A stretch of 64,000 bases of DNA, taken from Lingula anatina. Lineage: Eukaryota; Animalia; Brachiopoda. Positions 18,255 through 59,931 of this stretch are shown here, one piece after another. The translations under genes were made by a program, and so were the position numbers. Position 1 is the first letter of the stretch. Each line of letters starts with the position of its first letter. The notes below the pieces were generated by a model that worked only from the letters and a program-made list of their open reading frames with translations, made no database searches and had not been told where the DNA came from. The stretch is taken from positions 9,982,001-10,046,000 of the forward strand of contig CM120642.1 in NCBI GenBank assembly GCA_051362555.1. Direction: 5' to 3'.

Positions 18255-18760
18255 TGTACCAGGCTCTTTTTACAGTGAAAAGCAATGATCTGACAATTTA
18301 TGTTGCTCATTAAAAACTATAATTTATTCACATGATATATACAAAACAGTTCCTTGTAACATTAATAATGGTGTTACAGTGTATAACTAGGCACAATTTG
18401 AATTTGTAAGTTATTCATTCATTCATAGATCTCAGCTGGTCAAGCAACTGCTGGTTGGTAGCCCTCACAGATTTCTCCACACTTGATGTTATCTCCCATT
18501 TTAGCTTTAGTAATACTGATACAATAATACTGATATATAATTTAAAAATTCAACATGATAAATTGATATATACAAATTCAATATCTTATTCAAACTTTCT
18601 GTTATTCATCTTCACTTCTATAACCACTAACAGAAAGCATTTTTAAAAAACAATTATCTTTCAATTTTCATTAGTGCCACAAGAATTTTGTCAGCATTGT
18701 AATACTTGTGATGAAAAAAAAAAATTCAAAGTTTGCCCAAGATAGCCATAATTCTCTCAT
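18255..18760 (-). pseudogene. Decayed duplicate of TNFR2 death-domain 3' half plus 3'UTR
   Basis: 18600-18760 aligns by eye to 18977-19118 (aagaattttgtcagcattgtaat; aagatagccata.ttctct) with indels. 18258-18310 and 18490-18600 match 18795-18975. Confidence 0.75.
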
Positions 18761-38000: not shown

Positions 38001-39299
38001 ATAGCATGAAACTTTATTTATTTAGAAGAATGAAGAAAAACAATCAGCAATTAAGTAAATGACTTCAAACTGTAGACTGTATTAACAAATGAATGGTCAG
38101 TTTAATTGAGAATTAACTTACTTCATACTATTGTAAAAATGTGTACTTGAATTAAGACATCTGAACGTACCCATCCTTGCATTTTCCACACTGGCTATTG
38201 GCTGTTGCTGTGCATTCAGTGGCAGTGATGCGATTTGAGAGTTCACAGGTTTTGCATGGTAAACAATAGGCAACTCCAATTTTATTACTAAATGTTTCAC
38301 CTTTTTTACATGGCTCACAGACTATGTCACATGGATCAGGCTAGAGAGAATAAAAAAATAATTATGATTAACATTAAGCTCAATAAAAGTAAAGACTTGC
38401 AATCAAAAATTGAAATGGGAACTTAAAAATATTGGATGTTAATGTACATGTATTTCTTTTGCAAACTCATTGATATTTTAAAAGAATGAAAATGTTTCAC
38501 TAAAATCAGCTGGATGTACATGTATACTATTTCAGTAATGGGTACACAAGTCTTTGCTGCTAAGTTATGCTTATTATCTATTTATTAAGTCTTTGCCATA
38601 TTTTTTGAAATAAGAAAAATATTCAAAAATATTTTTCTTACAAAAAACTCGCGTTTCTTTCCGTAGCCTATTTCACAGGTATTACACTCTTTACAACAAC
38701 CATCATTGGTCTTCTTGTCATTACGGTTGCAACCCTGTGATCCTGGACTGTAGAACCTCTCTCCATTTTCTTTGCACATAGCATTGGATGGAATCTCATT
38801 GGAATACACTGTGCTTGGAAGCTTAAACATTTAAAAATTGATCGATTACATTTTCTTAAAAGATTAAAATTTTAGATTTAAAAAAATGTACTGATATCAG
38901 CCAGCACACTGAAAAACATTGCCCATGCTGTTAAAGATTGAGTGCATTGGAGACCTCTTACTGGATTGAATAGGCCACATTGAGTATTGGATCTTAAAAA
39001 TGTAATGTAGTAAGTCTTAACAAGCAATACGTATCACAATGATCACTACAGACTGCATGTACATGTATAATCTAGGTTATAAGTATCAGAAGTATTAATT
39101 AAGACTCAATTAATCCAGCTAGCCATTGTGGTTCTGTGCCATTTTAGTTCCCAGCTTCCAGGATAGAACTGATAGCATGTTAACACTATATGTGATGATA
39201 ATATTAGTACATATTTTGTTTGTTGAAAGAGACTTAAAGTTTTACCTGAGTAACAGAAAGCACTCCGAAGAGGATAAATAACTTGTGGACTCTTATCAT
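34268..39299 (-). CDS. TNF receptor superfamily paralog 3 (EDAR-like, death domain), ~639 aa
   Basis: Exons: 39299-39246 (signal MIRVHKLFILFGVLSVTQ), 38821-38642 (CRD1), 38340-38171 (CRD2), 37954-37626 (CRD3 + mucin stalk), 37323-37123 (TM GIIIAVAVAVIVAIIAVVAGC), 36927-36834, 36609-36251, 35873-35739, 35504-35464, 35260-35212, 34575-34268 (death domain LAAELDPPKPMCNNWRHFG..MERYSAL). Total 1920 nt in frame. Confidence 0.9.
37714..37821 (-). repeat. Coding 27-bp minisatellite (4 x TP[L/M]VSST[P/S]T-like) in TNFR3 stalk
   Basis: Translation TPLVSSTPT TPMVSSTST TPLVSSTPT TPMVFSTT. Confidence 0.85.
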
Positions 39300-40849
39300 G
39301 ATAATCACCAATCAGATTTTCTCTCCCAATCCTGCTGTAATGTGAAAAAAAGAATATTGGACAGAGGAGACACATATATATGCCTAAATAATATAACAGA
39401 TTAATCCTGGAGTTAGCAAAAATTTCCAGGCTTTAAGTTAAGACCAACTACAGTTATTATACGAGGCTGGCCCCCTCGTCTGTAGACAAGACACCAACTG
39501 GAAGTATCAATATACTGTTAAAGCATAGAATTACCCAAGGAGTGGCTGTGTTTTATGACGTCAGATGATTTCAAAGGGGGACAATGACTTAACGTGCTAA
39601 TAATAAATACTATTGTGAAATAACATCAGGGCACACATTTCTATGACCTTTGATATTTGTTTGTGAGAAATGATGTTATGAATGCATGTGTAATTACCTG
39701 TCTGGTGTGCTATTCAGGTTGAATCTTAGGATAGGATACTTATTTGATAGGTAACTCTCACCATAATGAATGAGCACCAAGGCAGGCGCTGACTGTTTGT
39801 TCACTACATGCCTTGGTTTATTCTACTTTAACCTTGTCTTCTAGTGCTCTAGTGCTTAATCTGTGTCTAGTAATGTGATTGTCATTTTAAAGGTCCATAC
39901 TAAGATCCAAAATCTTGGATCCTAGGACCAATGTAGGATTTTTTTATGACAAACTCACACTTGACAAATTTACCAAAGGTAATGTTTCTTTTAAAAACTA
40001 ATCTTTGATCTTTCTTTTTTGACACATTACCCTGTAAATCAGGTATTTTCAAATATGTTTTACCATAAAAATGATTCTGGAATTGTTAAGTTAGCTATTT
40101 CTAATTAGGATATAGGTAGCTATAAGCAGACTGGTTGATGCATTAGTTTGGATGTTGACACAGATATGTAGTGTAAACACATTGATTCAATTTTTCCAAA
40201 ATTTAGAATTCAATTTCCGAGAAACCATATAATTAATTGTCAGCATATTATGGGATAAAAATGACTAATGAATATATTCCTTAGAATCACAATGAAAAAA
40301 ATGTAATATATTATTGAATCTGGATTATGAATCCCATTTCTGTTTCAATAAACTGCGAAAAATGAATAAATAAATAAAAAAACTTTCAATTAAATCCACA
40401 TGCAGTCACACAGATAAACAAGGGCCTGTTTCTTGTTCAATCATAATGCATATAAGTATTCTGCACATGGCAGAAATGGTGACACAGCAGTTAATTCTTA
40501 TTGATAAGTTATTTATCATTGATCGCTCTGCAATGTATACCTCTTCAAGACCTGATTTTCTTGTCACTGGTGAACAATGAATGTGATAAATTTCATTATT
40601 TCGTAAGAAGTATATATAAATTAGCATGCATCAGTTGTTGACTTCGCATTACCTTTGAAATTTTCTATATCTTTAGTTTGCTCAAATAGTAACATACATA
40701 TCTACACAATCTCTTTCATCAGGTAAAATCATTCTTCTGTACGTCACTGTAAATGTTGCAGCAAGTCCCACCATGACTGACATGGCACGTGTATGAAAGG
40801 GATTGATATTAATAGAATTTTTGCTAGCATCAGTAATTTTCTTTGGGAT

Positions 40850-40965
40850 GGGCTTTAACCCTTAAACTTGGATGCCCTGCCCCCTATGGCTTAATTTAAC
40901 CCTTTAAACTTGGGATTCCCTGCCCCCTATGGCTTTACTCCTTTACATTTGGATTCCCTGTCCCC
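40850..40965. repeat. Short degenerate tandem repeat (~45 bp x3)
   Basis: aaacttggatgccctgcccc / aaacttgggattccctgcccc / catttggattccctgtcccc. Confidence 0.7.
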
Positions 40966-41699
40966 TTTTCACATGTTTCTTCAGATCAAGACTGGATTTA
41001 ACAAATACATTGCAGTACATGTGCTGACTTACCATAGGACATCCAACATAAATAATGTATTATTTTGTCATAATGACATACCTTAATTGATGAAATCATA
41101 CCTGGAGTCAGACCATATTAAAGTAGCCAATGATAGCTACTGTAGGGTTGTTTACCAAATTTCTGCACCCATTTTCTATTGGCCACAAGCTAAGTTACCC
41201 TATATTTAGAAGCAAAATTTGGGGGGTTATTCCCCTAAGTTTCGAACAGTTCTGATTCATGTAATACCTTGCTGCAGTCCACCAAAGAAAATAACTTCTT
41301 TGTTTAATACATTATACCCATAAATGTGTGCTAAATTTTTTTTGAAATGAGTATATAGTGTCTTCATTTAATGAACTGCACTGTAGTATTGATATATCCT
41401 TGGACATAGTAAACTAAAATGTATAAAATAAAGACTAATTTCATGTGCCCCAGGCCTAGACAGTTATCCAAAATGGTTTTGAATTCACTCAGTGCACTTT
41501 TTCACACGTCTCATTAACCACAGTAAAATATACATCAGAGCAATTATGAAAAACAAATCTTTGGTTATTCATTGTACCTGACAGGTTGTAGTTATGAAGT
41601 TCTTTTACTTTATATGCAAAACCTGTGTAGGATATGGCTATATTGTTTAGGGAAATCCTTACTGGAACATTCCCACAAAGCTGTCTGGCCACACAGGTA

Positions 41700-44600
41700 T
41701 TCTAACTACTTGCACTAATGTGAGAAGATGACAAACAGTGCTACTGATTTATTTTCGAAAACTCTATTGAAATATGCCTTATCATTTTATAAATGAACAC
41801 TTTTTTGCTGGAAAGTGGAGTCAAAGTCAGATTTCATGATTTTTGAAAGATCTAACATCAAAAATTGCCTATAAAACACTTCTTTGATTATGAACCAAAA
41901 CATTGTATGGGAACTTAAAAGCCAGCTTAGCAAGGTCATCTGTCAAATACATACATTGATCCTGGCAGAACTCAATTGTTACCTGTAAATTACCATCTGT
42001 ATCATATGTGATATTTCATTTTTAAAACTATAAGCGTGTGTTTGATAATTGCAAAATCTGTTTTTTGGTTATTATATGATGCTTATTATGATATCATGGC
42101 CAACTGACAACTGAACAAATAAGGGACCGTTCACATGGAAAGTCTATTTTCTAAAAATCTATTTTCTATTCGCGGTATCTTGTGATCACGGTCTGTGCCC
42201 TGAATATCCCGCGGCGTAATTACTGGCAGCGCGAGCCAGTTACTTTCAAAGCTGTAATTAATTCTCGGCTGTGCTCGGAGTGATCACAAGATACCGCGAA
42301 TAGAAAAAAGATTTTTAGAAAATAGACTTGTCATGTGAACGGAGCCTTAGTCATCTCACATGAACCTGCACTGATAAGGTTTCATGTACAGATGAAGGGG
42401 CAGATTTAAAATGTGCCTATAATCTGATAGAGTAAGAATGATGTTAAATTTTCATATATTTTCTTGATAATTCTTTTATGCACCAAATATCAATGAAAAA
42501 AAAACAAAAACATTGTAATATATTCCATGTCAATGTTACCTATGTGTATTTAATTTCTTCATTCCATTCAACCCCAGTGTGATATATCAAATATCAAAAC
42601 AAATTGGTCGCAGAATTTTTTTTAAAAGCTGCAGTTGAATTTCAAATTATGTCAGATCCGTTTAGATAAATATCAGTTATATGAATTTCAACTGTCATTT
42701 CGTCACTGAAGAATATAAAACCTAGCTACTGAATTTCAGATTTACCACTGGCAACATGTATCAGAGCTCCTCACCTTATTCACTGGAGTGTCAAGCAGCT
42801 AGTGAACCTGACAGGAAGTCTAGACAAGGCAAGGAGTGCCCATTTGTTATTGCGTGGGAGGACTGATTAATTTTGGAACATACAAAGTCAAATATGTAAA
42901 CACGCATGGTCAACTTTTAAATATACTTTTTGGCTTTGGGCCAAATGGCCCACAGACCCATTGGTGAATCAGAGGTACAACAACAGGTAAATACAAAAAA
43001 TAATAATAATAATAAATATATATGTAACAAAAAAGAAAACTTTGACTGGATTATTATAAATGAGTACTGTTTTATGTATTATTATTATTATTATTATTAT
43101 TGTAATCTTTGTGATGTTTTTTTATTCCATTAATTATTGTAATTATTACTTTTTGGCTTTGGGCCAAATGGCCCAAAGACCCACTGGCGAAACAGAGGTA
43201 CAACAACAGGTAAATACAAAAATAATAATAATAATAATAAAAATTATTATTATTATAATGATAATAAATATATATGTAGCAAAAAAGAAAACTTTGACTG
43301 TATTTTTATAGATGAGTACTGTTTTATGTATTATTATTATTATTATTATTGTAAGTCTTTGTGATGTTTTTTTTTATTCCATTAATTGGGTCATGTACAT
43401 GAAGTATTATATAGGTAAATTTCTCTGATTTTGCAATATACTGATGGCCTAGAGTGGTGCTGATTTTAGTCAAAACGTTTCACCTGCAAGGAAAACTTTT
43501 AAAATGTACCAAGAAAATGAAAAAGAAAATAGATTTATTCTAAAGCAAGTTGCCATGCATTGTTACATGAGTACCTAACATTTTTTTCATCTATAACATT
43601 TTCTATAGGGTTTTTAAGTAATTGACTCCAAAGTTAAAATCACCAGAGAGACAAAACAAACATGGATATCTATAATTTTTCCAATCTTAGAATGGATACA
43701 ATAGTGTCAAGTAAGCATGAAAAATCTATCAGACAGAAATGTCATAGGGACTAACCTTAACCGGTTTCAACTGGTATTTGTGAAACTACTGTAGACACTG
43801 ACTTCCAGTAGCTAGGTCACTGCATGAATACATGGCTAATAAATATATTTATTACTGTAAAGCGAAAATACACACCTCTCTCCTAGCTCGAGCTCCCATC
43901 ACCTGTATAGATTTGTTTAGATGGGCAGAATTGAGTGATGCAATACAATATACATATTACATATATGCAGTGTATTGTGTGGGGAAATCTGCATTGGAAC
44001 ATTTCTGCAATGCTGTCTGGCCACACACAGGTTAAAGGGATAATAACTCTTCCTTTTGGCTAAAAAATGAATTTTCCTGGAGTAAACAACAATTTTCCCA
44101 TACTTACCAATGGTTAATGAATCCATTTTTACATTCAAAGTTAGTCCCTGTTTTTTTTTCTAAAAATTTTTTTTTTTTGTTATAATCTCTTAAGAGATGC
44201 ATGTTATAATCTCTTAAGAGATTATAATAGAGTATAGCCATCAATGGAGGTCACGTGGTCTAAAGACAAGCTCAGATATCAGAATAATAGCTATAACTGC
44301 CGTATTTGTGGTGAAACAGAATATATTATTTTTCTGTGAGTTGTTTACGATGTTTTAATTGTGAAATATAGATCTCATACGAAGAGGTATTATCCCTTTA
44401 AGCTACTTACACTAATATGAGAAGATGATGGCAGGAAGCTGTGCTCCTAATTTCTTTTCAAAAACATAATTGAAATCTGCCTTATCATTTAGAAATAAAC
44501 CTTTTTTTGCTGGGAAGGGGAGTCAAAGTCAGATTTCATGATTTTTGAAAGATCTAACATCAAAAATTGCCTATAAAACACTTCTTTGATTATGAACCAA

Positions 44601-45800
44601 AACATTGTATGGGAACTTAAAAGCCAGCTTAGCAAAGTCAGCTGTCAAATACATACATTGATCCTAGCAGAAATCAATTGTTACCTGTAAATTACCATCT
44701 GCATATATATGTGATATTTCATTTTTAAAACTAACCATAAGCATGTGTTTGATAATTGTTAAATGTGTTTTTGGTTATTTTGTGAAACTTATTATGCTAT
44801 CATGGCCAATTGACAATAAATGAATAAGACACCTGTTATAAATGAGCTTGATAAGGATCATGGAAGATATACTAATGACAGGACAGATTTAAAATGACAC
44901 CTGAAACATTACATCTAACTTACTAAGAGGATATCATAGTTTTTCTGATACATTTAGTGTACTTGCATGATAGAATAGAAATGATGTTAAACTTTTATCA
45001 GTTTTTTAATAATCCTTATATGCAAGTTTCATGTTATCGTGAATATCACTTGTTGTAAAAACTCTCACCAAATGTTCATAAAAAAAAAAAACTCTGTAAT
45101 ATATTCCATGTGAAGACTGAGTGCTAACTGTGCCTACTTGATTTCCACAATGCATTTAACCACAACGTAATATATCTAATATCAAAACAAAGTGGTTGCA
45201 GAATTTTTTAAAAGCTGCAGTTCAATTTCAGATTATGTCAGATCAGTTAAGATAAATATCATTTACATCTATTTCCAATGTCATTTTGTCACTGAAGAAT
45301 ATAAAACCTAGCTACTGAATTTCAGATTAACCACTAGCTGGCAACACATTATATCAGAGCTCCTCACCTTATTCGCCTGAGTGTGGAATAGCCTAAGTGA
45401 ACCAGACAGGAAGTCTAGACAAGGCAAGGAGTGGCCATGTGTTATTGCGTGGGAGGACTGTTTTATTTTGGAATATGCATGGTCAACTTTTGAATATACT
45501 TTTTTGTCTTTGGGTCAAATGGCTCGCCAATACACTCGTAATATTTCACATACAGCTCGGCGACTCGTATTGTATCTATCACTTATTACTGAAAAGCGAA
45601 AATACGTACCTCTCTCCCCCCCATCACCTGTATAGATTTTTAAATGGGCAGAATTGAGTGATGCAATACAATATACATATTACATATGTGCAGTGTATTT
45701 GATAAGAGATGAAAAACAAAGTCCAAACTAGGCAAAGAGCGACCATGTGTTATTGCCTGGGACGACAGTTTTGTTTTGGAATGAACAAAAATAAGTGAAC
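41700..45800. repeat. Duplicated non-coding block (~41700-42950 vs ~44405-45530) with nested ~240-bp tandem duplication (42925-43390)
   Basis: Near-identical gagtcaaagtcagatttcatgatttttgaaagatctaacatc... at ~41818 and ~44520; tttggctttgggccaaatggccc at ~42929 and ~43152. Confidence 0.88.
42123..42346. mobile_element. MITE family 1, internally deleted copy
   Basis: gggaccgttcacatgg...catgtgaacggagcc flanked by TAA/TTA; absent from the paralogous segment near 44820. Confidence 0.82.
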
Positions 45801-46921
45801 ACATGCATTGTCAATAACTTTCAGAAATTGAAGGGATGGTTTGCCCCCCCCCCCTCCCCCCCCCCCCCCCGACACCACTGAAATCTGCCGCTGCACACAA
45901 ACACACACACACACATCATCATCATCATCATCATCTTATTTCTAATGTATAAATGTATTCTTAAGTCTTTTATGAGGGTTGTAGATTAACCAACATGGTG
46001 ACTTCTAAGCATGTAATTTGACCTGTACCTTAGGTCAATAAATGATATTTTTGTCAATCTTAAACAGCTGTCACTAACTCTCGTTTGAATAATTATTGAT
46101 AAATGCATCATACATAACTAAGTCATATACCTATAACTGCAAAACTGGGCAAACAGATAAAAGGATCAAATTTTTTTTTTTTTTTTTTTGCTGATCGAGT
46201 GATTTATTTATTTTTTATTGTGATAATAGATCTAGATATGTATTACATGTATGTATAACACAAGTAGTTTAGAGGGCCTGCAAAATGTACTGAAACATTT
46301 TAGTGCTCAATAAAATTATTATTATTATTATTATTAATTTGTTTGGTTTATTTTTTGGCATGTGGACATTATTTAAGTCTATAAGATACTGGTAGAAGTG
46401 ATTTATAAATGTTAGAGGGAGATATTATAAACAGTTCTAAAATACGGTTTAGTTTGACCTTTTCTTTTGAATAAAAAATAATAAAAGAGTTAATTATGGA
46501 TGCACATTGACCACAGTTCACATGTAATAAACATTGTCAGCAATAATTGTAATACATTTTTATCTCTTTTTTCATGATTTTTTTTTTTTTTTTGCATGTG
46601 TGTAAAACCTCATTACTAAAATAACGGCAATTTTATAGGCATCTCATGTAAATAATAACAGAAATAATTTGAAAAATAAGTACGGTTATGTATGACTGCT
46701 TTGGAAGACAGAAATGTAAATACTAATGGTAATTACAAGCCTATTAGGAGATGTGAATTTAACGAAGTAATTTCATGATAAGTGACAAAAACTAGATAAT
46801 TATCTGATAAATATTATTCTTATAGCACTGACATAACAAGGCCAGGAAATGGATCAAATAAAAATAATAACTTCACTTAGCACAGAATTAATGAAACATT
46901 TGATGGGCAAGTTTGCCTGAG

Positions 46922-46929
46922 TATAAAAG
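46922..46929 (+). promoter_or_regulatory. TATA box of peptide gene A
   Basis: TATAAAAG 57 nt upstream of the ATG; equivalent motif at 50927 in copy B. Confidence 0.65.
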
Positions 46930-46978
46930 CCCAGTAGTCATTGCCAAGTTTTAAGATAAATGTCATAACAAAGCCAAA

Positions 46979-47200
46979 ATGTTTTCAAAGAGGTGTGCTT
47001 TAGTAATGCTGTGTCTCGTGGTGGTTATGGCAGGGTTGGCATTGTCTAAAAATTACTTGATAGGAGACACAAGTAACATGCCTGAATTCTGCAAGAAACA
47101 TCCTGTAGGTACCAAGGTCTGTAATGGTATTGCTGATGAATTGGGCCACTGGACCTGCTGCACATGTGGACCAAATGGTGCATTTGGATGTACAGGATAA
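46979..47200 (+). CDS. Secreted six-cysteine peptide precursor, copy A (73 aa)
   Basis: TATAAAAG at 46922, good start context (gccaaaATG), signal peptide MFSKRCALVMLCLVVVMAGLALS, mature KNYLIGDTSNMPEFCKKHPVGTKVCNGIADELGHWTCCTCGPNGAFGCTG. ORF is conserved in the duplicate copy. Splice donor at 47218 and AATAAA signals lie downstream. Confidence 0.85.
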   Translation: MFSKRCALVMLCLVVVMAGLALSKNYLIGDTSNMPEFCKKHPVGTKVCNGIADELGHWTCCTCGPNGAFGCTG

Positions 47201-49524
47201 CTGAAACCAGTATGCTGGTATGTATCTTTTTCCTGTATTCTGAACAAGAACTATACATGTATCATTTTATAGTTGTATGTACTGCTTGATTACTATATTT
47301 AATTATTTGTTTCTTTCAGTTTCTTGTCAGCATTATTTATCATCACCTAACAATTTAAAGAAGTGCAGGGGTCACGAATGCCCTCCACACACTTGAAGGC
47401 CATGAGGACCATGGGGATGATAGATTTTATATCTAACATGTTTTTACTCTCAAAAAATAAAGTTTAATAAATAAAGAACTGGGTGACTTATTCTTGTCCA
47501 AATTGCATTTCACTTTGTATGAGGCGTTTTATCCAACCTTTTAAAATGCATGATGACACCTGCACTTTGGGTTTTGTTTTTTATGTTGTCCTTAAGTTTT
47601 TTGCCATTTTCAAATATGCCTGATAAATTAAGTAAATGAATTTCTTTTTCCTTTTTGCAGTGGTGCCTGTGGCTACTTTCTTTTGGCTTGAAGAAAATGA
47701 AAAAACATGTTGTAGAACAGTGTGCCGATTGAAGTACATACAGTGTGAATTTTTGCTTCAGTCTATTTGACTGTTGCAGATAGATTATTCATTCTTAAAA
47801 TGTGAATTATGCAATAAATAAGTGCTAATCACAAACTGTAGTGCATTGTTTGTGTTTTTTTAACTCATTTACTTCAGAATATAAGTAATTAAATATCCAT
47901 TAAAAATTTCTGCGTTTACATGTCTTATGCCAATAAATATTTCTAAGGACATCTTTTTACTTCAGTTGCTGTTAGAAAGGGCTATTAATAGCCTATCACT
48001 GAATGAGTCATTTTTAAAAGAGAGAAAGGAGGGATTGTCATTATTGTTATTTTAGGAGAGTATTTTGACACCATTACATTTATTAGTGTCCAAGTATTTC
48101 ATTTAACATGTGCAAATGTTATCCACTTCTAGTTTTATCCATTTTTGTCCTTTGGCTGCCAAATGAAAAAAAAAGCACTTGTTATAAATGATCTTAATTA
48201 TAATTTCAGAGGGAAAATCTTAACATCCAATTTTCAATGTACAGTATTAAAAAAAATTGTGGTAGTTCACCATTTTTGACTGATAAACTTAAAAATTCAT
48301 GTTTCTTTCTTAAACTCTTCATAAAACATTATCTCCGGGTCTATTACCAAACAATGTTTCATAATCCCAACCGTGTTGACACATTACACCTTTGCATTCG
48401 GTCGAGAGATCATACAAAAGAACACAGGAAGTTGTAGTTTTTTAAAGTTCTGTGTATTTACTTTGGCTGTTATGAAATATGTGGGTGGACAAGTTAATAA
48501 CTTTGAGATTTAGCTGAGCTGTGCCAGTAGATGAATCTTAAGTTGAGAAGCTATGGGTAATAGTGTTAAATAATATACTTACATTTAATTATCTCATAAC
48601 ACCACCTGTGAATTCTACTCAAATGTGCCACAAAATTTTCATGATTTGAACTTTTGATAATAATAATATTAATGTACATATCAACCACTTTATGAGTACT
48701 TAAAAGCAATAAATGGAAGTGTGTGTTTGCAGCCTCTCCAGTCTATTGGGACATATTTTATTTTTCTGTTAAAGAAATCTGAGGTACAATAGAATGATAA
48801 ATCAAGACTTATAAGTCAAGCTCTTAGCATCAATATGTATTTTCTAGTACAGTACCGGTAGTACTTAACTGTTACCATCTGATACACTATCACATTTTAA
48901 AGAGTGGTTAATACCCCATAAAATGCGTACCACGTGCAAGAGATATGGACTATAAAGCAATTCATTTGTGAAAAAAATCTGAAGTTAATGCAAAAACAAT
49001 TAAAATTTCCATAGGGGTCTATAGTAATTGACTCCAGAGTTTAAATCACCAGAGCAACAAACATGGATATCTATCATTTTCGAATCTTAAACTGGATGCA
49101 ATAGTGTCAGTTAAGCATGAAAAATCTATCAGACAAAAATGTCATAAGGACAAACCTTAACCGGTTTCAACTGGTATTTGTCAAACTATGGAGACACTTT
49201 CAGTAGCTAGGTCACTGCATGGATACAAGGCTAATAAATATTACTGCAAAGGGAAAATGCCTCTCTCCTCCCATCACCTGTATAGATTTGTTTAATGGGC
49301 AGAACTGAGTGATGCAATACAATAAACATATTACATATACATATTACAGTGTATCTTAGAAGAGATAAAAAGTGAAGTCTAGATATGGCAAAGTGGAGGA
49401 CCATCTAATTTTGGGAGAAATGGAGTCTGCAATAAGTAAACACGACTTTTTAATATACTTTTTTGGCTTTGGGCCAATGGCCCATGGGTTACATACAGGG
49501 GCAGATCCAGGATTATTTGAAGTG

Positions 49525-49555
<31 letters not shown>

Positions 49556-49657
49556 AGGATGCGAAAACCCCCCCCTGACACCCCCCCCCCTCTAAATCCC
49601 GCATTGACATAGATGTGCAACTACAGGTTAAAACTAAAATAATAATAATAATAATAA

Positions 49658-49694
<37 letters not shown>

Positions 49695-49714
49695 TAAATT
49701 TTAAAAAAATAAAA

Positions 49715-49768
<54 letters not shown>

Positions 49769-50481
49769 TATCATAAATGATAATAATAATTATGTAATTT
49801 TTTATTAATGTAAAAAATAAATTATATAACTGTAGGAAGGTAAATACTGCCTTAATCATATTGATATAACATAAAAGTTTCTCTAACAAATACTTGTTCA
49901 TTAGAAATAAACACTCTGTTTACTGATTACCCTTAACTAGAAGAGATAATCAACAAGACTTGTCTTAGACATTTCCATGCTTGGTTGTAATATTGATTGG
50001 TTAATGAATTTAAAACACACACACACACACACACACACACGCATCATCATCATCATCATTGGTTTATGGTTTATTCTTTGCCATGTGGACAATATTTGAG
50101 TCTGTAAGGTACTGGGTGATTTATAAGTTCTACAGGGAGATTTTATAAAAAGTTCTAGAATAAGGTTGAGTTTGACCTTTTCTTTTGAATAAAAAATAAT
50201 AAAAGAGTTAATTATGGATGCACATTGACCACAGTTCACATGTAATAAACATTGTCAGCAATAATTGTAATACATTTTTATCTCTTTTTTCCTGTTTTTT
50301 TTTTTTTTGCATGTGTGTAAAACCTCATTACTAAAATAATGGCAATTTTTTGGCACCTCATGTAAATAATAGCAAAAATTTTTTGAAAAATAAGTACATG
50401 GTTAAAAATAATGGCAATTTTTTGGCACCTCATGTAAATAATAGCAGAAATAATTTGAAAAATAAATACATGGTTATGTAT

Positions 50482-50695
50482 GGGCGCATTCCCATAGATT
50501 TTAGATCGATCTATCCCCGTGGGGAGTCTCACTAGATTACAGTCAGATAATCTGGCTTAAATGTCCGTCCCGCCTACTACAAGCTGTAAGGGGATAATTA
50601 ACTTTCGTGCCTGCTCGGCTGACATCTATTTAGTGTGAACCCCCAGGGAGTTAGGTCGATTTAGTTGGATAGATCTTATCTCTGGGAATGGGGTC
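50482..50695. mobile_element. MITE family 3 inserted upstream of peptide gene B
   Basis: Imperfect TIRs gggcgcattcccatagat / atctctgggaatggggtc with a 3-bp TAT duplication. Copy A has the empty site (ggttatgTATgactgc at ~46684). A related right end is at ~10655-10710. Confidence 0.78.
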
Positions 50696-50926
50696 TATGA
50701 CTGCTTTGGAAGTCAGAAATGTAAATACTGTTGGTAATTACAAGCCTATTAGGAGATGTGAATTTAACAAAGTAATTTCATGATAAGTGACAAAAACTAG
50801 ATAATTATCTGATAAATATTATTCTAATAGCACTGACATAACAAGGCCAGGAAATGGATCAAATAAAAATAATAACTTCACTTAGCACAGAATTAATGAA
50901 ACATTTGATGGGCAAGTTTGCCTGAG

Positions 50927-50934
50927 TATAAAAA
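50927..50934 (+). promoter_or_regulatory. TATA box of peptide gene B
   Basis: TATAAAAA 57 nt upstream of ATG 50984. Confidence 0.65.
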
Positions 50935-50983
50935 CCCAGTAGTCATTGCCAAGTTTTAAAATAAATGTCATAACAAAGCCAAA

Positions 50984-51205
50984 ATGTTTTCAAAGAGGTG
51001 TGCTTTAGTAATGCTGTGTCTCGTGGTGGTTATGGCAGGGTTGGCATTGTCTAAAAATTATTTGATAGGAGACACAAGTAACATGCCTGAATTCTGCAAG
51101 AAACATCCTGTAGGTACCAGGGTCTGTAATGGTATTGCTGATGAATTGGGCCACTGGACCTGCTGCACATGTGGACCAAATGGTGCATTTGGATGTACAG
51201 GATAA
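50984..51205 (+). CDS. Secreted six-cysteine peptide precursor, copy B (73 aa)
   Basis: Identical to copy A except one synonymous change (TAC/TAT) and one K>R change. TATAAAA at 50927, donor at 51223. Confidence 0.85.
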   Translation: MFSKRCALVMLCLVVVMAGLALSKNYLIGDTSNMPEFCKKHPVGTRVCNGIADELGHWTCCTCGPNGAFGCTG

Positions 51206-54200
51206 CTGAAACCAGTATGCTGGTATGTATCTTTTTCCTGTATTCTGAACAAGAACCATACATGTATCATTTTATAGTTGTATGTACTGCTTGATTACTA
51301 TATTTGATTATTTGTTTCTTTCAGTTTCTTGTCAGCATTATTTATCATCACCTCCTAACAATTTAAAGAAGTGCACTGGTCACGTATGCCCTCCACACAC
51401 TTCAAGGCCACGAGGGCCATGGGGATGATAGATTTTATATCTAACATATCTAACACCCTCAACAAATAAAGTTTTAATAGATAAAGAAACAATGTGACTG
51501 TTATTCCTGTCCAAATTGCATTCCACTTTGTATGAATCGTTTTAGTTAAAAACTTTTTTATCCAACCTCTTGAAATGCATGATGACACCTGCACTTTGGC
51601 TTTTGTTTTTTTTTATATGTTGTCTTTTAGTTTTTTTGCCATTCTCAAATGTTGAATTATCAAATATGCCAGATAAATTAAGTAATGAATTTCTTTTTCC
51701 TTTTTGCAGTGGCGTCTGTGGCTACTTTCTTTTGGCTTGAAGAAAATGAAGAAACATGCTGTAGAACAGTGTGCCACTTGAAGTACATAAAGTGTGAATT
51801 TTGGCTTCAGTCTATTTGACTGATGCAGATAGATTATTCATTCTTAAAATGTGAATTATGCAAAAATAAATGCTAATCACAAACTATTGTGCATTGTTTA
51901 TCTCATTTACTTCAGAATATTAGTAATTAAATATCCATTAAAAATTTAGAAGCGTTTACATGTCTTATGCCAATAAGTGTGTCTAAGGACATCTTTTCAC
52001 TTCAGTTGCTGTTATAAAGGGCTATAAATAGCCTATCACTGAATGAGAAAGGAGAGATTGTCATGATTGATATTTCATGAAAGCAGCTCAGGTATTTTGA
52101 CACCATTATATTTATTAGTGTCCAAGTATTTCATTTAACATGTGCAAATGTTATCCACTTCCATTTTTTTCCCTTTGGCTGCCAAATGAAAAACAAAAAA
52201 CATCTGTTATATATCATCTAAATTATAATTTCAGAGGATTAAAACTTATCATCCAATTTTTCAATGTATTAATTTTTTTGTGTTAGTTCACCATTTTTTG
52301 ACTGACAAACTTAAAAATCCATATTTCTTTCTTAAAGTCTTCACAAAATATGATTTCGGGGTCTTTTATCAAAGAATATTTCATAATCCCAACCGTGTTG
52401 ACACATTACACCTTTGCATCCGGTCTCATACAAAAGAACACAGGAAGTTGTGGTTTTTTAAAAGTTCTGTGTATTTACTTTGGCTATTATGAAATATCGT
52501 ACATGGGTTAACAACTTTGATATTTAGTTAAGCTGTGCCAGTAGATGAACATCTAGTTGAGAAGCTAAGGGTATTGTTAAATAATACATATTAAATTGGG
52601 TATTGTTAAATAATATATATTAATACACATTTAATTATGTCATAACACCACCTGTGAATTCTACTCAAATGTGCCTCAAAATTTTCATGATTTGGACTTC
52701 TGATAATAATAATATTTATTTTAATGTACAAATCAACCACTTTATGAGTGCTTAAAAGCAATAAATGGAAGTGTGCATTTGCAGGTTTTCCAGTCTGCAC
52801 ATTTCAGGACATATTTTCTGTTAAAGAAATCTGAGGTACAAAAAAATAATAAATCAAGACAAAAAAAAAAAAAAAAAAAAAAAAAAACCCTTAGCATCAA
52901 TATGTATTTCTAGTACAGTGCTAGTAGCATTTAACTATTACCATCTGATACACTATCAAATTTTAAAGAGTGGTTAATACCCCATAATTTGTACCAGTAT
53001 ATGGGTTTGATAAATCCTATAACTAAATTCATTCATGTGAATTTCATTATATATGCATCATGACATAGCTCAAATTCTTTCAACTTCCAGTAATATTTTA
53101 TAATTCATTTACTTATATAATGATAGAAATATATTTATTCTACATCTATAAACACATCAATCCTTCTACTTACATAATAATAGTGATATATAATACTTAG
53201 TCATTTAGACAATAATAATGATAATATATTGCTTTATTGAGCAAATGTAATATATTTATATTCTGTATTATACATTTTACAATTCATTTACATATATAAT
53301 AAAAATAATAATAACCAGTATCTTTATTCTTTATACACATTAATCCCTATACTTATATCATAAAAATGGATTAATACTTAGTGGAAATCTGAACGGTCAG
53401 TGGTACAGTGATGAAGTCCTAAGTACAGCTATTGTGCAATTTGTGCATCAGCACCCAACCCTTACTTGCTCCAGCACAACATTAGTTATTAATAAGCATA
53501 AATGAAATCACAAACACATATCTTGAGATCACATAGAGCAATGATTGGTCATAAAGTTTGAACTGGCCATGTAATGAAGTTGTTAATCATTCAAAGCCCA
53601 GTTATATCTACTGGAAATTTAAGGGCCTTAGTCTTCCCAGTATGGTATAAAATGTTTTGTCATTTTAAAAAATTTTGAAAATGTATATAACTAGTGCTTG
53701 ACTACTGGTGTGGTTGATGTACTTATTTGATCTGTATAAATCTCGGGTTCCATTTGTGTTATCCTTTTCCTTCTTTTAGGCTTTGAAGGTTAGAGTGATT
53801 AATATGTCACAAAAAGTCCTTTTCAAAGCTGCTGGTAAACTACTGAAGCTGATGCATGTGTTTTGTGACAAAGCTAAACAGCATGTATGAAAAAATTGTG
53901 AACAAATTTAAGAAATGTTTGAAACTAGGACACCATCATTTACAAATATAATTATCAAAACACACATGCATACTCTATTTTGGACGAGAAATGTAAGGAG
54001 ATTTTCATCTATGCTTATAAATTAAGCTAAATTAATATATTTGCTCTTTTAAAATATATGTATTTTACTGCAAATTAACATTTTCATAATGTGGTTATAA
54101 TTTCTTTGTAAACAAATAAATGATACTTTGTATGTCACAGAAATATATTTGACAACCTAGAGCTTCTCTTTATAACTGTAGGCCTTCTTGCCAATTAAAA

Positions 54201-54298
54201 AATTAGTTACTGTTTTAAATAAATATTATGATGGCATAATGCAGACTTTTCTTTATCTCACATAAGAAGTATTCTTTACTGAAACTGGCTGCAAAGCT

Positions 54299-54331
<33 letters not shown>

Positions 54332-54512
54332 TCTTACCTGGGAATTATATCAGAATATATATCCAATATAATTCCCTGATCTTACAAGAAAAAAAAAAAA
54401 AAAAACAATTTTGAGAAAGTTAACCATAGTGAACCATTGTATTATGAAGATTCCATTGATGTTGTCATCAATTTTTTTTCACTACATGCTAATTTAATTT
54501 AGCAGTATAAAA

Positions 54513-56524
54513 CTAAACTACTCTTTTCTGTTCAGTATTTTCCTTTTGTTCCAGATCTTCTTGTGCCTGTTGAGCCTGCACAAAGTTACTGTCATCTACA
54601 GCTGTGATGCCGAAGTGTAGATCATCATCATCAGGAGTTGTTGGGTCAGCAGCACTTTCATAAGTTACCCCCATACCTCTGCTCTTTGCCGGGAGATTAA
54701 TCTTTAATTGTAAATCTACTCTAGCTTGACATTTTTCTGCAAGATTTCTATTGTAACAACCCTTACTGCTGTTCCGCTTATAATGACGGAGTGAACTGAG
54801 AGGCCCAAGTAATGGCTGTGCCTCGTGTAAAGTTCCTCTTGGCTTCTTTATTTGTTTAAGGTGTGTAATACTATTGTTCTCTTCTCGATTCTGGTTATGT
54901 GAAGTTGTCTCACTTGTAAATTCCCCTCTGTTGTTAGAATAAGAAAGTGTGCCACCAACTGGTTCAGCTGACAGTTGAGATCTAGAAGTATTTTCACCAG
55001 CCCTGGCAATGGCTCCTTGATAGGAATGTGTTAGCCTGTCACCTTCTTCTGGGCCTGTATCACTGCCATAACTCTGAACAGATAAACTAGGTGTTTCTTG
55101 TGAACATTCGCTGGGCCGTGTTTTAGCCCTACAATTGAAATTTCCTGGTCCTCTATTTCTGTAAGATTGTGATATTAAATTTTACTGAATAATAAAGGTG
55201 ATGGTAAAATAAATATTTAAGTATTTATTGTTTTTTTAGGATAAACAATTATTCAAAGGGAAAAAGATTAACACAATTTCAACTGAATATAGGTCTCCTA
55301 ATATTTTTAAAGGCTTTTTATTGGCTCTTTCCTGGATGGAGGTCTGTCCTATTCTTTTTACTTTTTTATAAAGGGCAATGGAGATAATGATCAACAAAAA
55401 TTGTTTTGACGAAGTGTGAACACCTGTACCTGCTTTTTCAAAGGGAAGGTTCTTTTTTCTTTTTTTTTAAGTGAACCTTTTTATCTCATAAGTTTACCTA
55501 ACTTGAGACAACTTCACAGCTAAATCTAGATCAAATTTTGCTCCAGTTTTTTAGCCAATGGGGTGTTTAAAAACCCACCTAAACCCCCCTCCCTGCTCAC
55601 TTTTTTCAAAATGAAAAGAAAGTTGTGGATTTCTGTAACAGTCACGTCATACTTTATTCACTGCTGCATGCTTCAAAACATACATTCAGTATGGTTACAA
55701 TTAAAGTTTACAGAACTACCAGTCAGTGTTACAGCTACATGTATTTCATCTTCATTATTTTAACGATTTAATTTTAATATCATTTGATTACCTTGTGTTT
55801 TGCCCAACACTGTTAACTCTTTCATCATAAGACATCATGCTAGCAGCATTACTTTCTGCGCCTGAAAGAAAAAAAGTGGACTTTATATTTTCACTGAAGA
55901 ACTGATTTCTTAACAGTGATTTTAAAAATGTATTATAATGATACTGTTTACTTGCATTGGCTGGGTATTCCTGAAGACTCCTTTTATTTGATTATTTGCA
56001 TTTTTGCTGCTTTCCATAACTACGTGTAATTATCAAAATAAAGGGTAAATATTCAGAAAATAACTTATGCTTTTGAAATACAAAGAGTTTAATCTTAGGG
56101 AAATACCCGTTTCTCTCCCAGGCAATATGTCCCTTAAATGATCTACAAGGGTTTTTCCTGTGGCCCACCAGATAATGAACATAGCAATGTTCAGGCTTAA
56201 AACCAAGACAATGAAGCCACCAATCATGTGCAAAAAAAACACAGGCATAGGATCTGTGCAATGAAGAAGAAAAATCCACACTTTATTTAGCCATTGAGCA
56301 CAAAACAAAGGAACATCATATTTTTCTTAATTTCATGCACTCAATTAAGTAGTAACTGAACTTAACTAAACTGTGATAAGTTATATGAAGCCATTAAAAC
56401 TCTGATTTTTCAAATGGATTAAGGAAAACGTTGTACAACACCATCAAATTGAAAACAATGTATGGTCATAGGTGCCACATCAACTTTTTCCACGTCTTTC
56501 CTCTAAATCTGTTTTATTGAAATG

Positions 56525-56609
<85 letters not shown>

Positions 56610-59600
56610 AATTTTTACAAATGAATTGAAAATAAATCAAAACATCTTTATTAGATGTTCTTACCTATTCCCCTCTTTTTTTTACCTCCATTCGGAAGGG
56701 TGCTATTCATGGAGGAGTTGGATTTTCCTGTATAATTTGCCACCTCTGGGTTTGGTTCTTGAGTAACAGTGAGATCTATGATAGTACAAAGTTGTGAGAT
56801 TTATACACTAGTCTCAGAATTGTAAAATTTTTTCATATTATTATGCAGAGCAAGTCTCATAAATTGCAGATTGGACATTATTTTTGATATATTTAAAGAA
56901 AACTAGCACATTGCTTTCTTTTTTCTCAGATGCTAAAGTGTTCAAAATTAAGAACTGCCTCTGATTATCAAGTACATTTTAGTGAAACTGGCCCATGATC
57001 TGGAAGACAAATGAAAATCAAAAGACTTTACCAAACTGTCAACATGTGAGGTCTACTTAAAAAGCTTCATGGTTAAATTAAAATATGTTGCTAATAATAT
57101 AATATAATATAATATAATATAATATAATATAATATAATATAATACATGACTTTATATATAACTTTACTAGTGCTGATAAAATTGAAAGCATTACCAATTG
57201 TATATTTCAACGTGGCCACTGTTGTTACACTTTTGAATTCAACCGTTGAAGTTGCAGCATGCTCAGTGCTGTTCTGAATGCTCTGATCCATGCCTTTTGT
57301 ACTGCTATCAGGGTAGCTTGCTCTGATTGTACTGGGCAGTCCTTTTGTAGTGCTCCTGTCTAAGGGCACATTGAAATACAGATTACATACAAGTATGTTC
57401 ATATGGTCTTTTGTACATGGTACACAGTTCTCCTCCAGCTCTTGGCTGTATGTCGTTCTTCGATAATACCTGAAATATATGTGATGGGTAAATATGGCAC
57501 CTAGCTTCCAATTAGATTTCTAAAAGTATATAATAATTTAACCTAAAATACCTAGTATTAATATCATGGCTATAAATATTATAATCTGTATTCAAAGTTA
57601 AAAATTATTTTATACAAATAGTTATATGTGTAATTTATATATAAAATGTGGTTCTTTAATTGATCTACCTGACCCAGAATGCTAGTATAATATGCCAATG
57701 GGTTCAAGGTGATGACTGTGTATTTACCCAGGAATACAGCCCTCTCCACACTTCCTGTTCCTGCTCAGAGTACACTGCTCCTCTACAATGCGATTGTCAT
57801 AGCATCCTTGACATGGCTTACAGAAGAAGTCAAACTTGTCATTGTATGTTCTCCCAAGCTCACACTTTTGGCAGTCTTCTGTACATGGATTCTAGTTAGA
57901 AATGAAGACCAAAAGTAAGTCACTTTTTCTGTATTGCATTGTCTAAGGAGTATCACACAAGAAGCAAAAAGGGGAGAAAGAACTGTATTTTTAATCTACC
58001 TAATATATTTTCAAAACTTTGATCCCTGTTTTTTAACGTTTCTCTACAACGTTTTATGATTACCTTTACCCCCCTGGGCCTGCCATACCCCTTGCGGCAC
58101 TTGCAGGGCCGACAGCAGCCGTCTTTGTCTACTGTGTATAATTCCTCACATGGCTGAGGCTTCCTGTTTCCTCTGCTGCATCTACCCTGGCCCCGCCCCC
58201 TTTCTGTGTTAACAGTCTGAACAACTGCCTTAAAAGCAAAAGGGTGAGACAGGAATAAGCATGATTTTTTAATATGTTTTGCAATAACAAAAATAAGGGT
58301 TCTACATGTTATATGTTATCATTTCATTTTAATTTTGTTTTAATTTTGTTGAATTTGATTTAATTTTAATTTTGTTGAGTTATCAAAGTAGGCAAAAAAC
58401 ATGACTGGAGTTTTTTTTTTTCTGAAAACTATTTAATCCATAAAAAAAGTAAGATGCATTCTTTTTTCTTCATGTTCAACATTGCCTAACCATCAGTTGC
58501 GTTGCTATGGCCAATTACAATTCATCCACATTAGATTAGATTAAACTTAGCAAATCTTAGATGAGACTAATAGTAAATAGAGAAATAATGGCTTTCAAGA
58601 ACTTCTTGTTTATAAACAAGCATACTGAAATCTTTGTAAGATTACAGTAATGTTAACATAAAATTTTAATAATATGTTTGGAGTCTTATGCTTATCTCCA
58701 TTTTACATCTTCACATACAAAATGAAATTTGAAAATTTTGTGCTAGGGTGCTTGGCTATAGATTATTTTAACACAGTTTATGCAGCCCTGTTTTAATTAA
58801 ATTGAATATACACACACTGGGCAATAGAAGTACCACTCCTGAATCAAAGTAATCAAAGTTATAATGCCTGGTCTACTAATAATGTGACTAATGAGTATAA
58901 AACTGCTTCACCATGGAATTGTATTGTTGGTCTTTTTGTGAAATTTGATGTTAATAAAATGATACCAGGAGCATATCATATTCCACGGTCATTTATCTCC
59001 CCCAAAGCATTGGTTCAGTAGGGGTGACACTTCTATTGTCCAGTGTGTGTACTTTTATTTGATAACTTCAAACAAAAATCGTTGGTGTCAAGTTGCCCGG
59101 TTCTCTCCGATCACCGAAGTGATTCAACGTGGATAGGATCCGGGTAGAATAGTGAATAGCTATGTAATATTTACGTTTGTGCACCGCTAGACACCGTCTA
59201 GACACAGTGACCTACATTGACCAGAAGAGTGAACGAGTAAAAGCATACATGTACATATGCCTACAGTGATAAAAATGATAGCAGAAAATTACCACACACT
59301 ATTAATACAGAGTACTTCCGATTTGCAAACAAGATGTTTCCCGAGAACTGTTCGTAGGCCTTTTCTAAATTCTTAGCGATTTCAACATGTTCGTTAGTAA
59401 TGTATAAATGTATATGGTAATATCGATGTTACCGTAATGTTATTAAGATTTGTTGCTTATGTTCCTGTTTGGAATGCTGTACATGATATACATTTTACAA
59501 ATAATTTGACAAGGTTTACGACAGATCCACGAACCACCACCTAACACACCGAAAACTTTTTGACTTCCAACTTATCTTTTTAAGTTCGCCAATCGGGGTA

Positions 59601-59931
59601 GGTCGGCACTTTTCTCAAATTCACTCTTAACAATAATGCTTCACTGACTTAATAAAGAAAATAGCTATAATGAACTGGGGGCGTCTCGATAGTCCGAAGG
59701 TTCATTGGTCCGAAAAGTGGTAACATTTTCATCGATTTTTTAATCAAGGGTTCATTGGTCCGAAGGTTCTATAGTGAACATTCGGACCAATGAACCTTCG
59801 AACTATTGAACCTTCGGACTATCGCTACGGCCCCTAATGAACTAATATATCCAAGCTAACTGTGAAACAAGGTTACTTACAGAAAAAAAGAAAAGGAAAA
59901 TGAAGAAACTTGTCCATTTCGCTGATGCCAT
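54513..59931 (-). CDS. TNF receptor superfamily paralog 4 (EDA2R/TROY-like, no death domain found), ~542 aa
   Basis: Exons: 59931-59881 (signal MASAKWTSFFIFLFFFS), 58228-58064 (CRD1 DGCCRPCKCRKGYG), 57891-57728 (CRD2), 57469-57195 (GYYRRTTYSQELEENCVPCTK + stalk), 56775-56665, 56253-56107 (TM), 55861-55792, 55158-54513 (215-codon terminal exon ending EQKRVV-TAG). Phases compatible. Confidence 0.83.
59678..59834. mobile_element. MITE family 2 in TNFR4 first coding intron
   Basis: ggggcgtctcgatagtccgaagg...ccttcggactatcgctacggcccc, flanked by direct repeat taatgaact. Confidence 0.78.

What the first reader, a model, noticed from the sequence alone, without database searches (positions are those of the whole stretch)
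46979..51205. Duplicated gene for an unassigned secreted six-Cys peptide embedded antisense inside a TNF-receptor cluster
Seen: two intact 73-aa precursors with a TATA box, a ~23-aa signal peptide and a 50-aa mature region spaced C-x9-C-x11-CC-x-C-x7-C-T-G-stop. Known: C-C-CC-C-C is the cysteine order of knottins/conotoxin framework VI/VII, and a terminal Gly is the substrate for PAM amidation. The CxC-x3-G-x3-CT end also echoes pacifastin/VWC hairpins, but the spacing fits none of these, nor the mollusc defensins, myticins or macins as I recall them. Inference: a new family of amidated host-defence, toxin-like or signalling peptides. Their position between TNFR3 and TNFR4 raises the possibility of co-regulation with the receptors, or of acting as ligand or modulator.
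Basis: partly seen in the sequence, partly recalled or inferred. Interest (0 to 1): 0.85.

Follow-up and report, generated by a model that had tools for sequence, protein, structure and literature searches.

The report
Orphan secreted six-cysteine mini-protein gene pair
Two side-by-side copies of a small animal gene, whose spliced transcripts appear in some samples and whose protein sequence is conserved, encode a predicted secreted six-cysteine mini-protein with no relative found; it likely acts in defence by binding an outside target, and its place among TNF-receptor genes is likely only positional.

Summary
The two 73-aa ORFs are real, each with a TATA box, a hydrophobic leader, C-x9-C-x11-CC-x-C-x7-C-T-G-stop and a 3'-UTR intron. 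RNA reads cover the coding exon in 2 of 4 runs laid, and one run shows the GT-AG splice (22 reads). That run's reads are about 7% diverged, with 9 of 15 listed coding changes synonymous and no cysteine changed, so the peptide is under purifying selection. No homologue or family was found in Pfam, PDB sequences, 5.8 billion proteins, 1.84 billion representatives or metagenome contigs. A single-sequence AlphaFold model is confident (pLDDT 84; strand-helix-three strands). Its best structural match, the collagen XV/XVIII trimerisation domain (Z about 5), is too weak to assign. The spacing fails the knottin, CRP-I, pacifastin and insulin patterns. The mature peptide is neutral (pI 6.9), so a membrane-lytic antimicrobial is unlikely. 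The genes appear to lie between two TNF-receptor genes on the opposite strand, overlapping no receptor exon found. A shared cysteine spacing with one receptor's first domain did not survive testing. Verdict: a genuine orphan secreted disulfide peptide, perhaps a new scaffold; function and TNFR link unproven; taxon not established.

The parts
46922..46928 (+). TATA box, copy A
   Evidence: TATAAAA 57 nt before the ATG
46979..47047 (+). Predicted signal peptide (M1-S23), copy A
   Evidence: Hydropathy profile; cleavage site inferred from the -3/-1 rule
47048..47200 (+). Mature 50-aa six-Cys peptide plus stop, copy A
   Evidence: read depth up to about 50 in run X7 and about 7 in X4; model pLDDT 83.8
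47218..47660 (+). 443-nt GT-AG intron in the 3' UTR, copy A coordinates
   Evidence: 22 junction reads from 18 start places in X7; GTATGT donor and CTTTTTGCAG acceptor
47661..47835 (+). Non-coding second exon with AATAAA at 47813 (3' end approximate)
   Evidence: Junction and depth; motif
50482..50696 (.). About 215-bp insertion with imperfect terminal inverted repeats (MITE-like) upstream of copy B only
   Evidence: Alignment gap; ends compared
50927..50933 (+). TATA box, copy B
50984..51205 (+). 73-aa precursor ORF, copy B (R46 in place of K46)
   Evidence: reads carry copy-B letters at 5 of the 5 A/B-diagnostic places listed
51223..51710 (+). 3'-UTR intron, copy B (by homology)
51711..51885 (+). 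Non-coding second exon with AATAAA at 51865, copy B (3' end approximate)
46344..52987 (.). Tandem duplication, period about 4.0 kb (46344-48921 matches 50067-52987, 86-90% identical)
   Evidence: Self-BLAST
39246..39337 (-). Context: likely signal-peptide exon of TNFR3 (ATG 39299), the left neighbour
54513..55181 (-). Context: last coding exon and stop of TNFR4, the right neighbour; likely poly(A) signals at 53328, 53238, 53139

Best explanation
This is a tandem pair of a genuine, spliced, purifying-selected gene whose product is predicted to be secreted as a 50-residue, three-disulfide mini-protein, likely amidated, that likely works in defence by binding one specific extracellular target rather than by lysing membranes. 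Shown: two intact ORFs, splicing, sample-restricted transcription of the gene family, amino-acid conservation and neutral charge. Predicted: signal cleavage after S23 and a compact strand-helix-three-strand fold. Inferred from established pathway knowledge: PAM removes Gly73 to leave an amidated C-terminus, and six cysteines form three disulfides (pairing unknown). Inferred, weakest: the target is a microbial or host extracellular protein or glycan at an epithelium or in haemolymph, and the TNFR neighbourhood is only positional. I put the gene call at about 0.95 and the defence-by-binding role at about 0.4.
For: Splice junction 47217-47661, GT..AG, 22 reads. Coverage in 2 of 4 runs (X7, X4) and none in X1 or X3. 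9 synonymous to 6 conservative non-synonymous changes among the 15 coding differences listed; pN/pS 0.18-0.25, binomial P 0.001-0.008; 0 of 11 are synonymous in the antisense frame; no Cys or Gly73 change listed. Copies differ at 2 of 222 coding bases against 54 of 912 in promoter, intron and exon 2, Fisher P 0.0008. AlphaFold pLDDT 83.8, 4 of 5 models at 82-84, against 64.9 for one control, the antisense ORF. pI 6.9, charge -0.1. Tandem duplication is a common mode for invertebrate immune genes (PMC4346834, passages). Taxon-restricted C-C-CC-C-C peptide families exist in molluscs (PMC4558851).
Against: No call shows secretion, amidation, disulfide pairing, a target or immune induction; tissues and treatments of the runs are not given. 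Purifying selection fits a signalling ligand as well as a defence binder, and mussel CRP-I peptides are instead hypervariable. Only 40 of 333 difference rows were shown, and reads under 92% identity were dropped, so the selection count is partial. X7's reads match neither copy exactly, so they are a diverged allele or a third paralogue; copy A's own letters were not seen at any listed diagnostic place. X4 has about 1x background over many neighbouring bins. The model rests on one sequence. An NF-kB-like pattern search found 0 sites in 46-53.5 kb (pattern recalled).
Confidence: 0.45

Rival explanations
1. It is a secreted signalling peptide (hormone, cytokine-like factor or pheromone) acting on a receptor unrelated to the neighbouring TNFRs.
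For: Purifying selection, terminal Gly for amidation, neutral charge, TATA promoter and sample-restricted expression. The same cysteine order occurs in insulin-like hormones (PMC4558851 section 20).
Against: No Pfam hormone family hit. The CC-x1-C-x7-C spacing is not the insulin A-chain CC-x3-C-x8-C (recalled), and this stretch is modelled as strands. Recent tandem duplication and about 7% allelic or paralogue divergence are less usual for hormones (inference).
Confidence: 0.25
2. It is a ligand, decoy or modulator of the adjacent TNF receptors, co-regulated with them and possibly a trimer.
For: Position inside a four-gene TNFR cluster. Its best structural match is a trimerisation domain (Z 5.0-5.2, rmsd 1.7-1.8, 44 aligned), a fold also trimeric in a phage tailspike (PMC8822698, passages). 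The run with most peptide reads (X7) also has most TNFR3 reads, and X1 and X3 have neither. The first four cysteines are spaced 9/11/0, as in TNFR1's first domain.
Against: A profile of the four TNFR first domains scores the peptide 2.4 bits, against 26-42 for left-out TNFRs; 75-83% of shuffles score as high. No tblastn or DNA similarity to TNFR exons. Z near 5 is within the range the tool calls a common arrangement, with SH2 halves close behind. Four runs, two from one study, cannot show co-expression.
Confidence: 0.07
3. It is a direct antimicrobial or toxin-like peptide of knottin or defensin type.
For: C-C-CC-C-C order, most often found in neurotoxic peptides in Swiss-Prot; signal peptide; terminal Gly; tandem duplication.
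Against: The spacing fails the ICK consensus and the CRP-I consensus, even the loose one. There is no pro-region. Net charge is about 0. There is no CxxxC in the helix. Selection is purifying.
Confidence: 0.13
4. It is a non-immune extracellular accessory protein, such as a mucus, adhesive or matrix protein or a non-canonical protease inhibitor.
For: Small, neutral, stable predicted fold; weak likeness to matrix modules (collagen XV/XVIII trimerisation domain; fibronectin FN1 modules at E 1.3-1.6, TMq about 0.41).
Against: The pacifastin C2-N-x-C3 core and C5-C6 reactive loop are absent. Expression is modest in the runs seen (roughly 18 reads per kb per million in X7, my arithmetic and a lower bound).
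Confidence: 0.1

Closest known systems
Mussel CRP-I peptides (MgCRP-I; PMC4558851, passages and section 20 read)
   Same: Taxon-restricted secreted peptides with the C-C-CC-C-C order, found as gene families of unknown function.
   Different: CRP-I has a ~15-aa pro-region with a dibasic site, spacing C(3-6)C(1-7)CC(3-4)C(3-5)C, a hypervariable mature region and two introns inside the ORF. Here: no pro-region, spacing 9/11/0/1/7, a single coding exon with a 3'-UTR intron, purifying selection.
Inhibitor cystine knot peptides, including conotoxin framework VI/VII
   Same: Cysteine order; signal peptide; possible amidation.
   Different: Loops 1 and 2 (9, 11) exceed the consensus CX3-7CX3-8CX0-7CX1-4CX4-13C (PMC4942781, passages). 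The model has a 10-residue helix and four strands. No pro-peptide.
Pacifastin-like, VWC and FN1 hairpin modules (PMC13388995, abstract and sections 3, 6 read)
   Same: C-x-C-x3-G-x3-C-T hairpin at the C-terminus; Asn after the second Cys; weak Foldseek rows for FN1 modules.
   Different: No C-N-x-C core, an adjacent CC pair, and the chain ends two residues after the last Cys, so the C5-x-P1-P1'-x-C6 reactive loop is missing.
Collagen XV/XVIII (multiplexin) trimerisation domain and similar phage tailspike N-terminal domains
   Same: Best structural match of the model over its whole length (Z 5.0-5.2, rmsd 1.7-1.8, 44 aligned).
   Different: 7-14% identity; Z below the tool's trust level; those domains are parts of large proteins and, from recall, lack this cysteine set; trimer formation untested.
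First cysteine-rich domain of the neighbouring TNF receptors
   Same: Six cysteines in C-C-CC-C-C order; 9/11/0 spacing equal to TNFR1's.
   Different: Last two spacings differ (1/7 against 2/2 or 2/1); no sequence signal above shuffles; different exon structure and strand.

Membership tests
Knottin / ICK | Spacing CX3-7CX3-8CX0-7CX1-4CX4-13C | tested here: not met
   Consensus from PMC4942781; regular expression finds no match; loops are 9 and 11
Knottin / ICK | Disulfides C1-C4, C2-C5, C3-C6 forming a knot | not testable with these tools
   The structure tool returns no coordinates or bond list
Knottin / ICK | Knottin fold by structure comparison | tested here: inconclusive
   Fold searches gave no confident assignment to any family
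Mussel CRP-I | C(X3-6)C(X1-7)CC(X3-4)C(X3-5)C | tested here: not met
   the loose 1-10 spacing also fails
Mussel CRP-I | About 15-aa pro-region ending in KR/RR; ORF split by two introns | tested here: not met
   The only dibasic pair after the leader is KK, inside the first cysteine loop; the ORF is one exon
Pacifastin | C2-N-x-C3 core | tested here: not met
   PMC13388995 section 6; no C-N-x-C in the peptide
Pacifastin | Reactive loop C5-x-P1-P1'-x-C6 | tested here: not met
   Chain ends C-T-G-stop; no C-x4-C at the end
Pacifastin | Gly in the C4-C5 loop after a C-x-C | tested here: met
   C-x-C-x3-G-x3-C present; a generic hairpin motif
CS-alpha-beta defensins, mytilins, myticins | CxxxC in the helix bonded to CxC in a strand (motif recalled) | tested here: not met
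   No CxxxC; only one Cys falls in the modelled helix
CS-alpha-beta defensins, mytilins, myticins | Cationic mature peptide (PMC7168163, passages; near-neutral exceptions are noted there) | tested here: not met
   pI 6.87, charge -0.12 at pH 7
Insulin / bombyxin family | B-chain C-x11-C and A-chain CC-x3-C-x8-C (pattern recalled) | tested here: not met
   Spacing 9/11/0/1/7; no Pfam hit
TNFR cysteine-rich domain (soluble derivative) | Sequence similarity to TNFR_c6 or to the neighbours' first domains | tested here: not met
   No Pfam hit; 2.4 bits against 26-42, no better than shuffles
Multiplexin trimerisation domain | Same fold | tested here: inconclusive
   Top row, Z 5.0-5.2, rmsd 1.7-1.8, 44 aligned, below the tool's trust level
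Multiplexin trimerisation domain | Homotrimer formation | not tested
PAM-amidated peptides | C-terminal Gly on a secreted precursor | tested here: met
   T-G-stop in both copies; no change listed at Gly73 in X7
PAM-amidated peptides | des-Gly amidated product observed | not testable with these tools
   Needs peptidomics

The most novel reading that the evidence does not exclude
The peptide is the founding member of a new disulfide scaffold: a free, secreted, cysteine-stapled version of the multiplexin trimerisation fold that trimerises and engages the TNF receptors encoded on either side, as a TNF-unrelated ligand or antagonist kept in the receptor cluster.
Probability: 0.05. Interest if true: 0.88.

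Novelty: new variant of a known kind. Interest (0 to 1): 0.5.

Why it matters
Small secreted disulfide peptides are a main source of invertebrate immune effectors, signals and engineering scaffolds, and gene finders often miss them. This one has direct support as a gene (splicing, purifying selection) but no relative in the collections searched and a cysteine spacing outside the frameworks tested. At 50 residues it can be synthesised, so its structure would show quickly whether it is a new scaffold. The general class, lineage-restricted cysteine-rich secreted peptides, is well known, which limits the surprise unless a TNFR link or a distinct activity is shown.

Tried and rejected
Family and homologue searches, all negative: Pfam 0 families for 3 queries; NCBIfam 0; PHROGs only E 0.07-0.16; PDB sequences 2 chance rows at E 1.2; 5.8-billion-protein search, no candidate among 40-128 aa proteins (longer and shorter not searched); 1.84-billion-representative search, 5 hits, all long bacterial Ig-like or MopE repeat proteins whose E-values come from summed weak repeats, rejected; metagenome contigs, 0 of 596 pattern matches confirmed; earlier scan findings, nothing. 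These libraries may simply lack this animal: two neighbouring proteins, a death-domain exon and a 411-aa TPR ORF, also found nothing at E 0.001. The blank is therefore weak evidence of novelty and gave no taxon. No whole genome is held, so further copies and synteny were not searched. The ESM Atlas and complex prediction were not available. Run search: no RNA holder listed among indexed runs. Fold searches: no Foldseek match at E 0.001 in PDB or viral models; no knottin, defensin, pacifastin, insulin or TNFR chain among the rows shown, which does not exclude them. Derivation from a TNFR first domain: raised by matching spacing, rejected by profile and shuffle tests. Antisense ORFs over the same DNA as the real gene: rejected, 0 of 11 changes synonymous. 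A third copy in the window: none by tblastn. Literature: four 8-residue motifs, 0 papers in the held full texts; topical searches listed no title describing such a peptide in a TNFR cluster; supplements were not searched and could hold such sequences. False duplication of two haplotypes in the assembly was considered and not tested (no DNA run was laid).
Full report
Observation. Both ORFs are present as described: 46979-47200 and 50984-51205 on the + strand, 73 aa each, differing by one silent base and K46R. Each has TATAAAA 57 nt upstream and a basic-hydrophobic leader. The mature part has cysteines spaced 9/11/0/1/7 and ends T-G-stop. A filter for short ORFs with a leader and six or more cysteines, chosen after seeing them, returns these 2 in the window and 0 in 100 dinucleotide shuffles. 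The copies are part of a tandem duplication with a period of about 4 kb and 86-90% identity. Copy B has an extra MITE-like insertion upstream.

Context. The window is AT-rich animal DNA (about 33% GC) with a TPR gene, a RecQ5-like gene (name from my reading of the exons; Pfam gives only a weak SRI hit) and four TNFR-like genes on the minus strand. Three have a death-domain exon; none was found for the fourth. TNFR3's likely signal exon starts at 39299, and TNFR4 stops at 54515 with likely poly(A) signals at 53139-53328. The peptide genes therefore appear to sit between the head of TNFR3 and the tail of TNFR4, overlapping no exon found. TNFR3's 5'-UTR exon was not mapped. The taxon was not established: no genome is held and two neighbouring proteins found no relatives.

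Is it a gene? Nine RNA runs with the same species label were listed. Four were laid on 38130-48950, reading about 6% of X1, X3 and X4 and about 25% of X7. The coding bin has mean depth 20 in X7, 3.6 in X4 and 0 in X1 and X3; X4 also has about 1x background on many nearby bins. X7 shows a GT-AG junction from 47217 to 47661 in 22 reads from 18 start places, which fixes the + strand and reveals a 3'-UTR intron and a non-coding second exon. X7's reads carry 8-9 other differences each. Of the 15 coding differences listed (40 of 333 rows were shown; reads under 92% identity were dropped), 9 are silent and 6 are conservative (V14M, L22S, A52T, L55M, A68S, T72A), with no cysteine or terminal Gly change. 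pN/pS is 0.18-0.25, binomial P 0.001-0.008, and 0 of 11 are silent in the antisense frame. Between the copies, 2 of 222 coding bases differ against 54 of 912 in promoter, intron and exon 2 (P 0.0008); gene conversion could add to this. At the 5 A/B-diagnostic places listed, reads carry copy B's letter, but most X7 differences match neither copy. The family is thus expressed, while copy A itself is not shown to be, and X7's form is a diverged allele or a further paralogue.

Relatives. None was found: Pfam, NCBIfam and PHROGs, PDB sequences, 5.8 billion proteins of 40-128 aa, metagenome contigs, earlier scan notes. The 5 hits among 1.84 billion representatives are bacterial repeat proteins scored by summed weak matches. 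Because neighbouring genes also found nothing, these blanks partly reflect poor coverage of this animal.

Structure. AlphaFold2 on the single mature sequence gave pLDDT 83.8 and pTM 0.58, with 4 of 5 models at 82-84: strand 2-5, helix 8-17, strands 23-29, 35-40 and 46-48. One control, the antisense ORF, gave 64.9 and two helices. Foldseek found nothing at E 0.001 in PDB or viral models. VIA-align ranked the collagen XV/XVIII trimerisation domain first (Z 5.0, rmsd 1.8, 44 aligned, 7% identity; 1 of 48,161 chains at Z 5 or more; Z 5.2), with SH2 halves and phage tail domains close behind. The tool warns that Z under 8 may be a common arrangement. That fold is trimeric in collagen XVIII and in a phage tailspike (PMC8822698, passages). 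The trimer test was not available. Disulfide pairing could not be read; from the strand order I would guess C15-C40, C25-C37, C38-C48 (mature numbering), which is inference only.

Family tests. The spacing fails the ICK consensus (PMC4942781, passages) and the CRP-I consensus, and the gene lacks CRP-I's pro-region and coding introns (PMC4558851, passages and section 20). The pacifastin core and reactive loop are absent (PMC13388995, abstract and sections 3 and 6). There is no CxxxC for a CS-alpha-beta defensin (motif recalled), and the peptide is neutral, pI 6.9, whereas these are mostly cationic (PMC7168163, passages). The insulin pattern (recalled) does not fit. Failing these tests lowers membership, not the possibility of a similar role.

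TNFR link. The first domains of the four neighbours also have six cysteines in C-C-CC-C-C order, and TNFR1's first three spacings equal the peptide's. A profile of those domains scores the peptide 2.4 bits against 26-42 for left-out receptors, no better than 3,000 full or 3,000 cysteine-fixed shuffles, and there is no DNA similarity. Peptide and TNFR3 coverage rank alike over the four runs, which is too few to count. Immune genes commonly sit in tandem clusters in oyster (PMC4346834, passages), so the location alone says little.

Mechanism. Shown: gene structure, splicing, sample-restricted transcription, amino-acid constraint, neutral charge. Predicted: secretion and a compact fold. Inferred: three disulfides and C-terminal amidation by PAM. 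A constrained, neutral, compact secreted peptide most likely works by binding a specific partner. I favour an extracellular defence role (0.45) over a signalling ligand (0.25), a lytic or toxin-like peptide (0.13), a matrix or inhibitor role (0.10) and a TNFR modulator (0.07).

Novelty. The four motif terms found 0 papers in the held full texts, and the topical listings (listings only, apart from the six papers named) showed no such peptide; supplements were not searched. It is a new variant of a known kind, the lineage-restricted secreted cysteine-rich peptide, with a possibly new scaffold. Interest 0.5.

Noticed in passing
window 53100-59931 (-): TNFR4 has signal, cysteine-rich and transmembrane exons and a long low-complexity tail, but no death-domain exon was found by tblastn with the three neighbours' domains; it may be a TRAF-type or decoy receptor.
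   Followed up: partly
window 42714-42870 (+), near-copy at 45300-45465, fragments near 45720 and 49370: A TATA-like box followed by a segment covered by RNA reads (about 17 in X7, 8 in X1) with only a 36-codon ORF that is not kept in the second copy; a non-coding transcript, a repeat or an unmapped UTR exon.
   Followed up: no
window 42120-42349 and 44029-44404: Two elements with terminal inverted repeats that draw hundreds of reads running on into unrelated sequence: abundant MITE-like repeats; relatives of the first at 27.3, 32.7 and 33.1 kb.
   Followed up: partly
window 50482-50696: MITE-like insertion about 230 bp upstream of copy B's TATA box, absent from copy A; it could make the copies differ in expression.
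   Followed up: partly
window 22566-23144 (-): In TNFR2 two ectodomain exons that are separate in TNFR1, 3 and 4 are one open frame, suggesting intron loss.
   Followed up: no
window 18630-18701 (-): A degenerate partial duplicate of TNFR2's death-domain exon with a stop codon.
   Followed up: no
window 2-1600 (-): A long open frame of at least 411 aa with TPR repeats and no relative at E 0.001 among 5,790 candidates.
   Followed up: partly
whole window: The palindrome TACATGTA occurs 17 times against 2.4 expected from base composition.
   Followed up: no
window 47260-47475 and the matching part of copy B: The 3'-UTR intron holds a second polypyrimidine-AG near 47320 and two AATAAA (47456, 47466), so an alternative last exon or intronic poly(A) site is possible; no such junction was among the 15 of 53 joints shown.
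   Followed up: no
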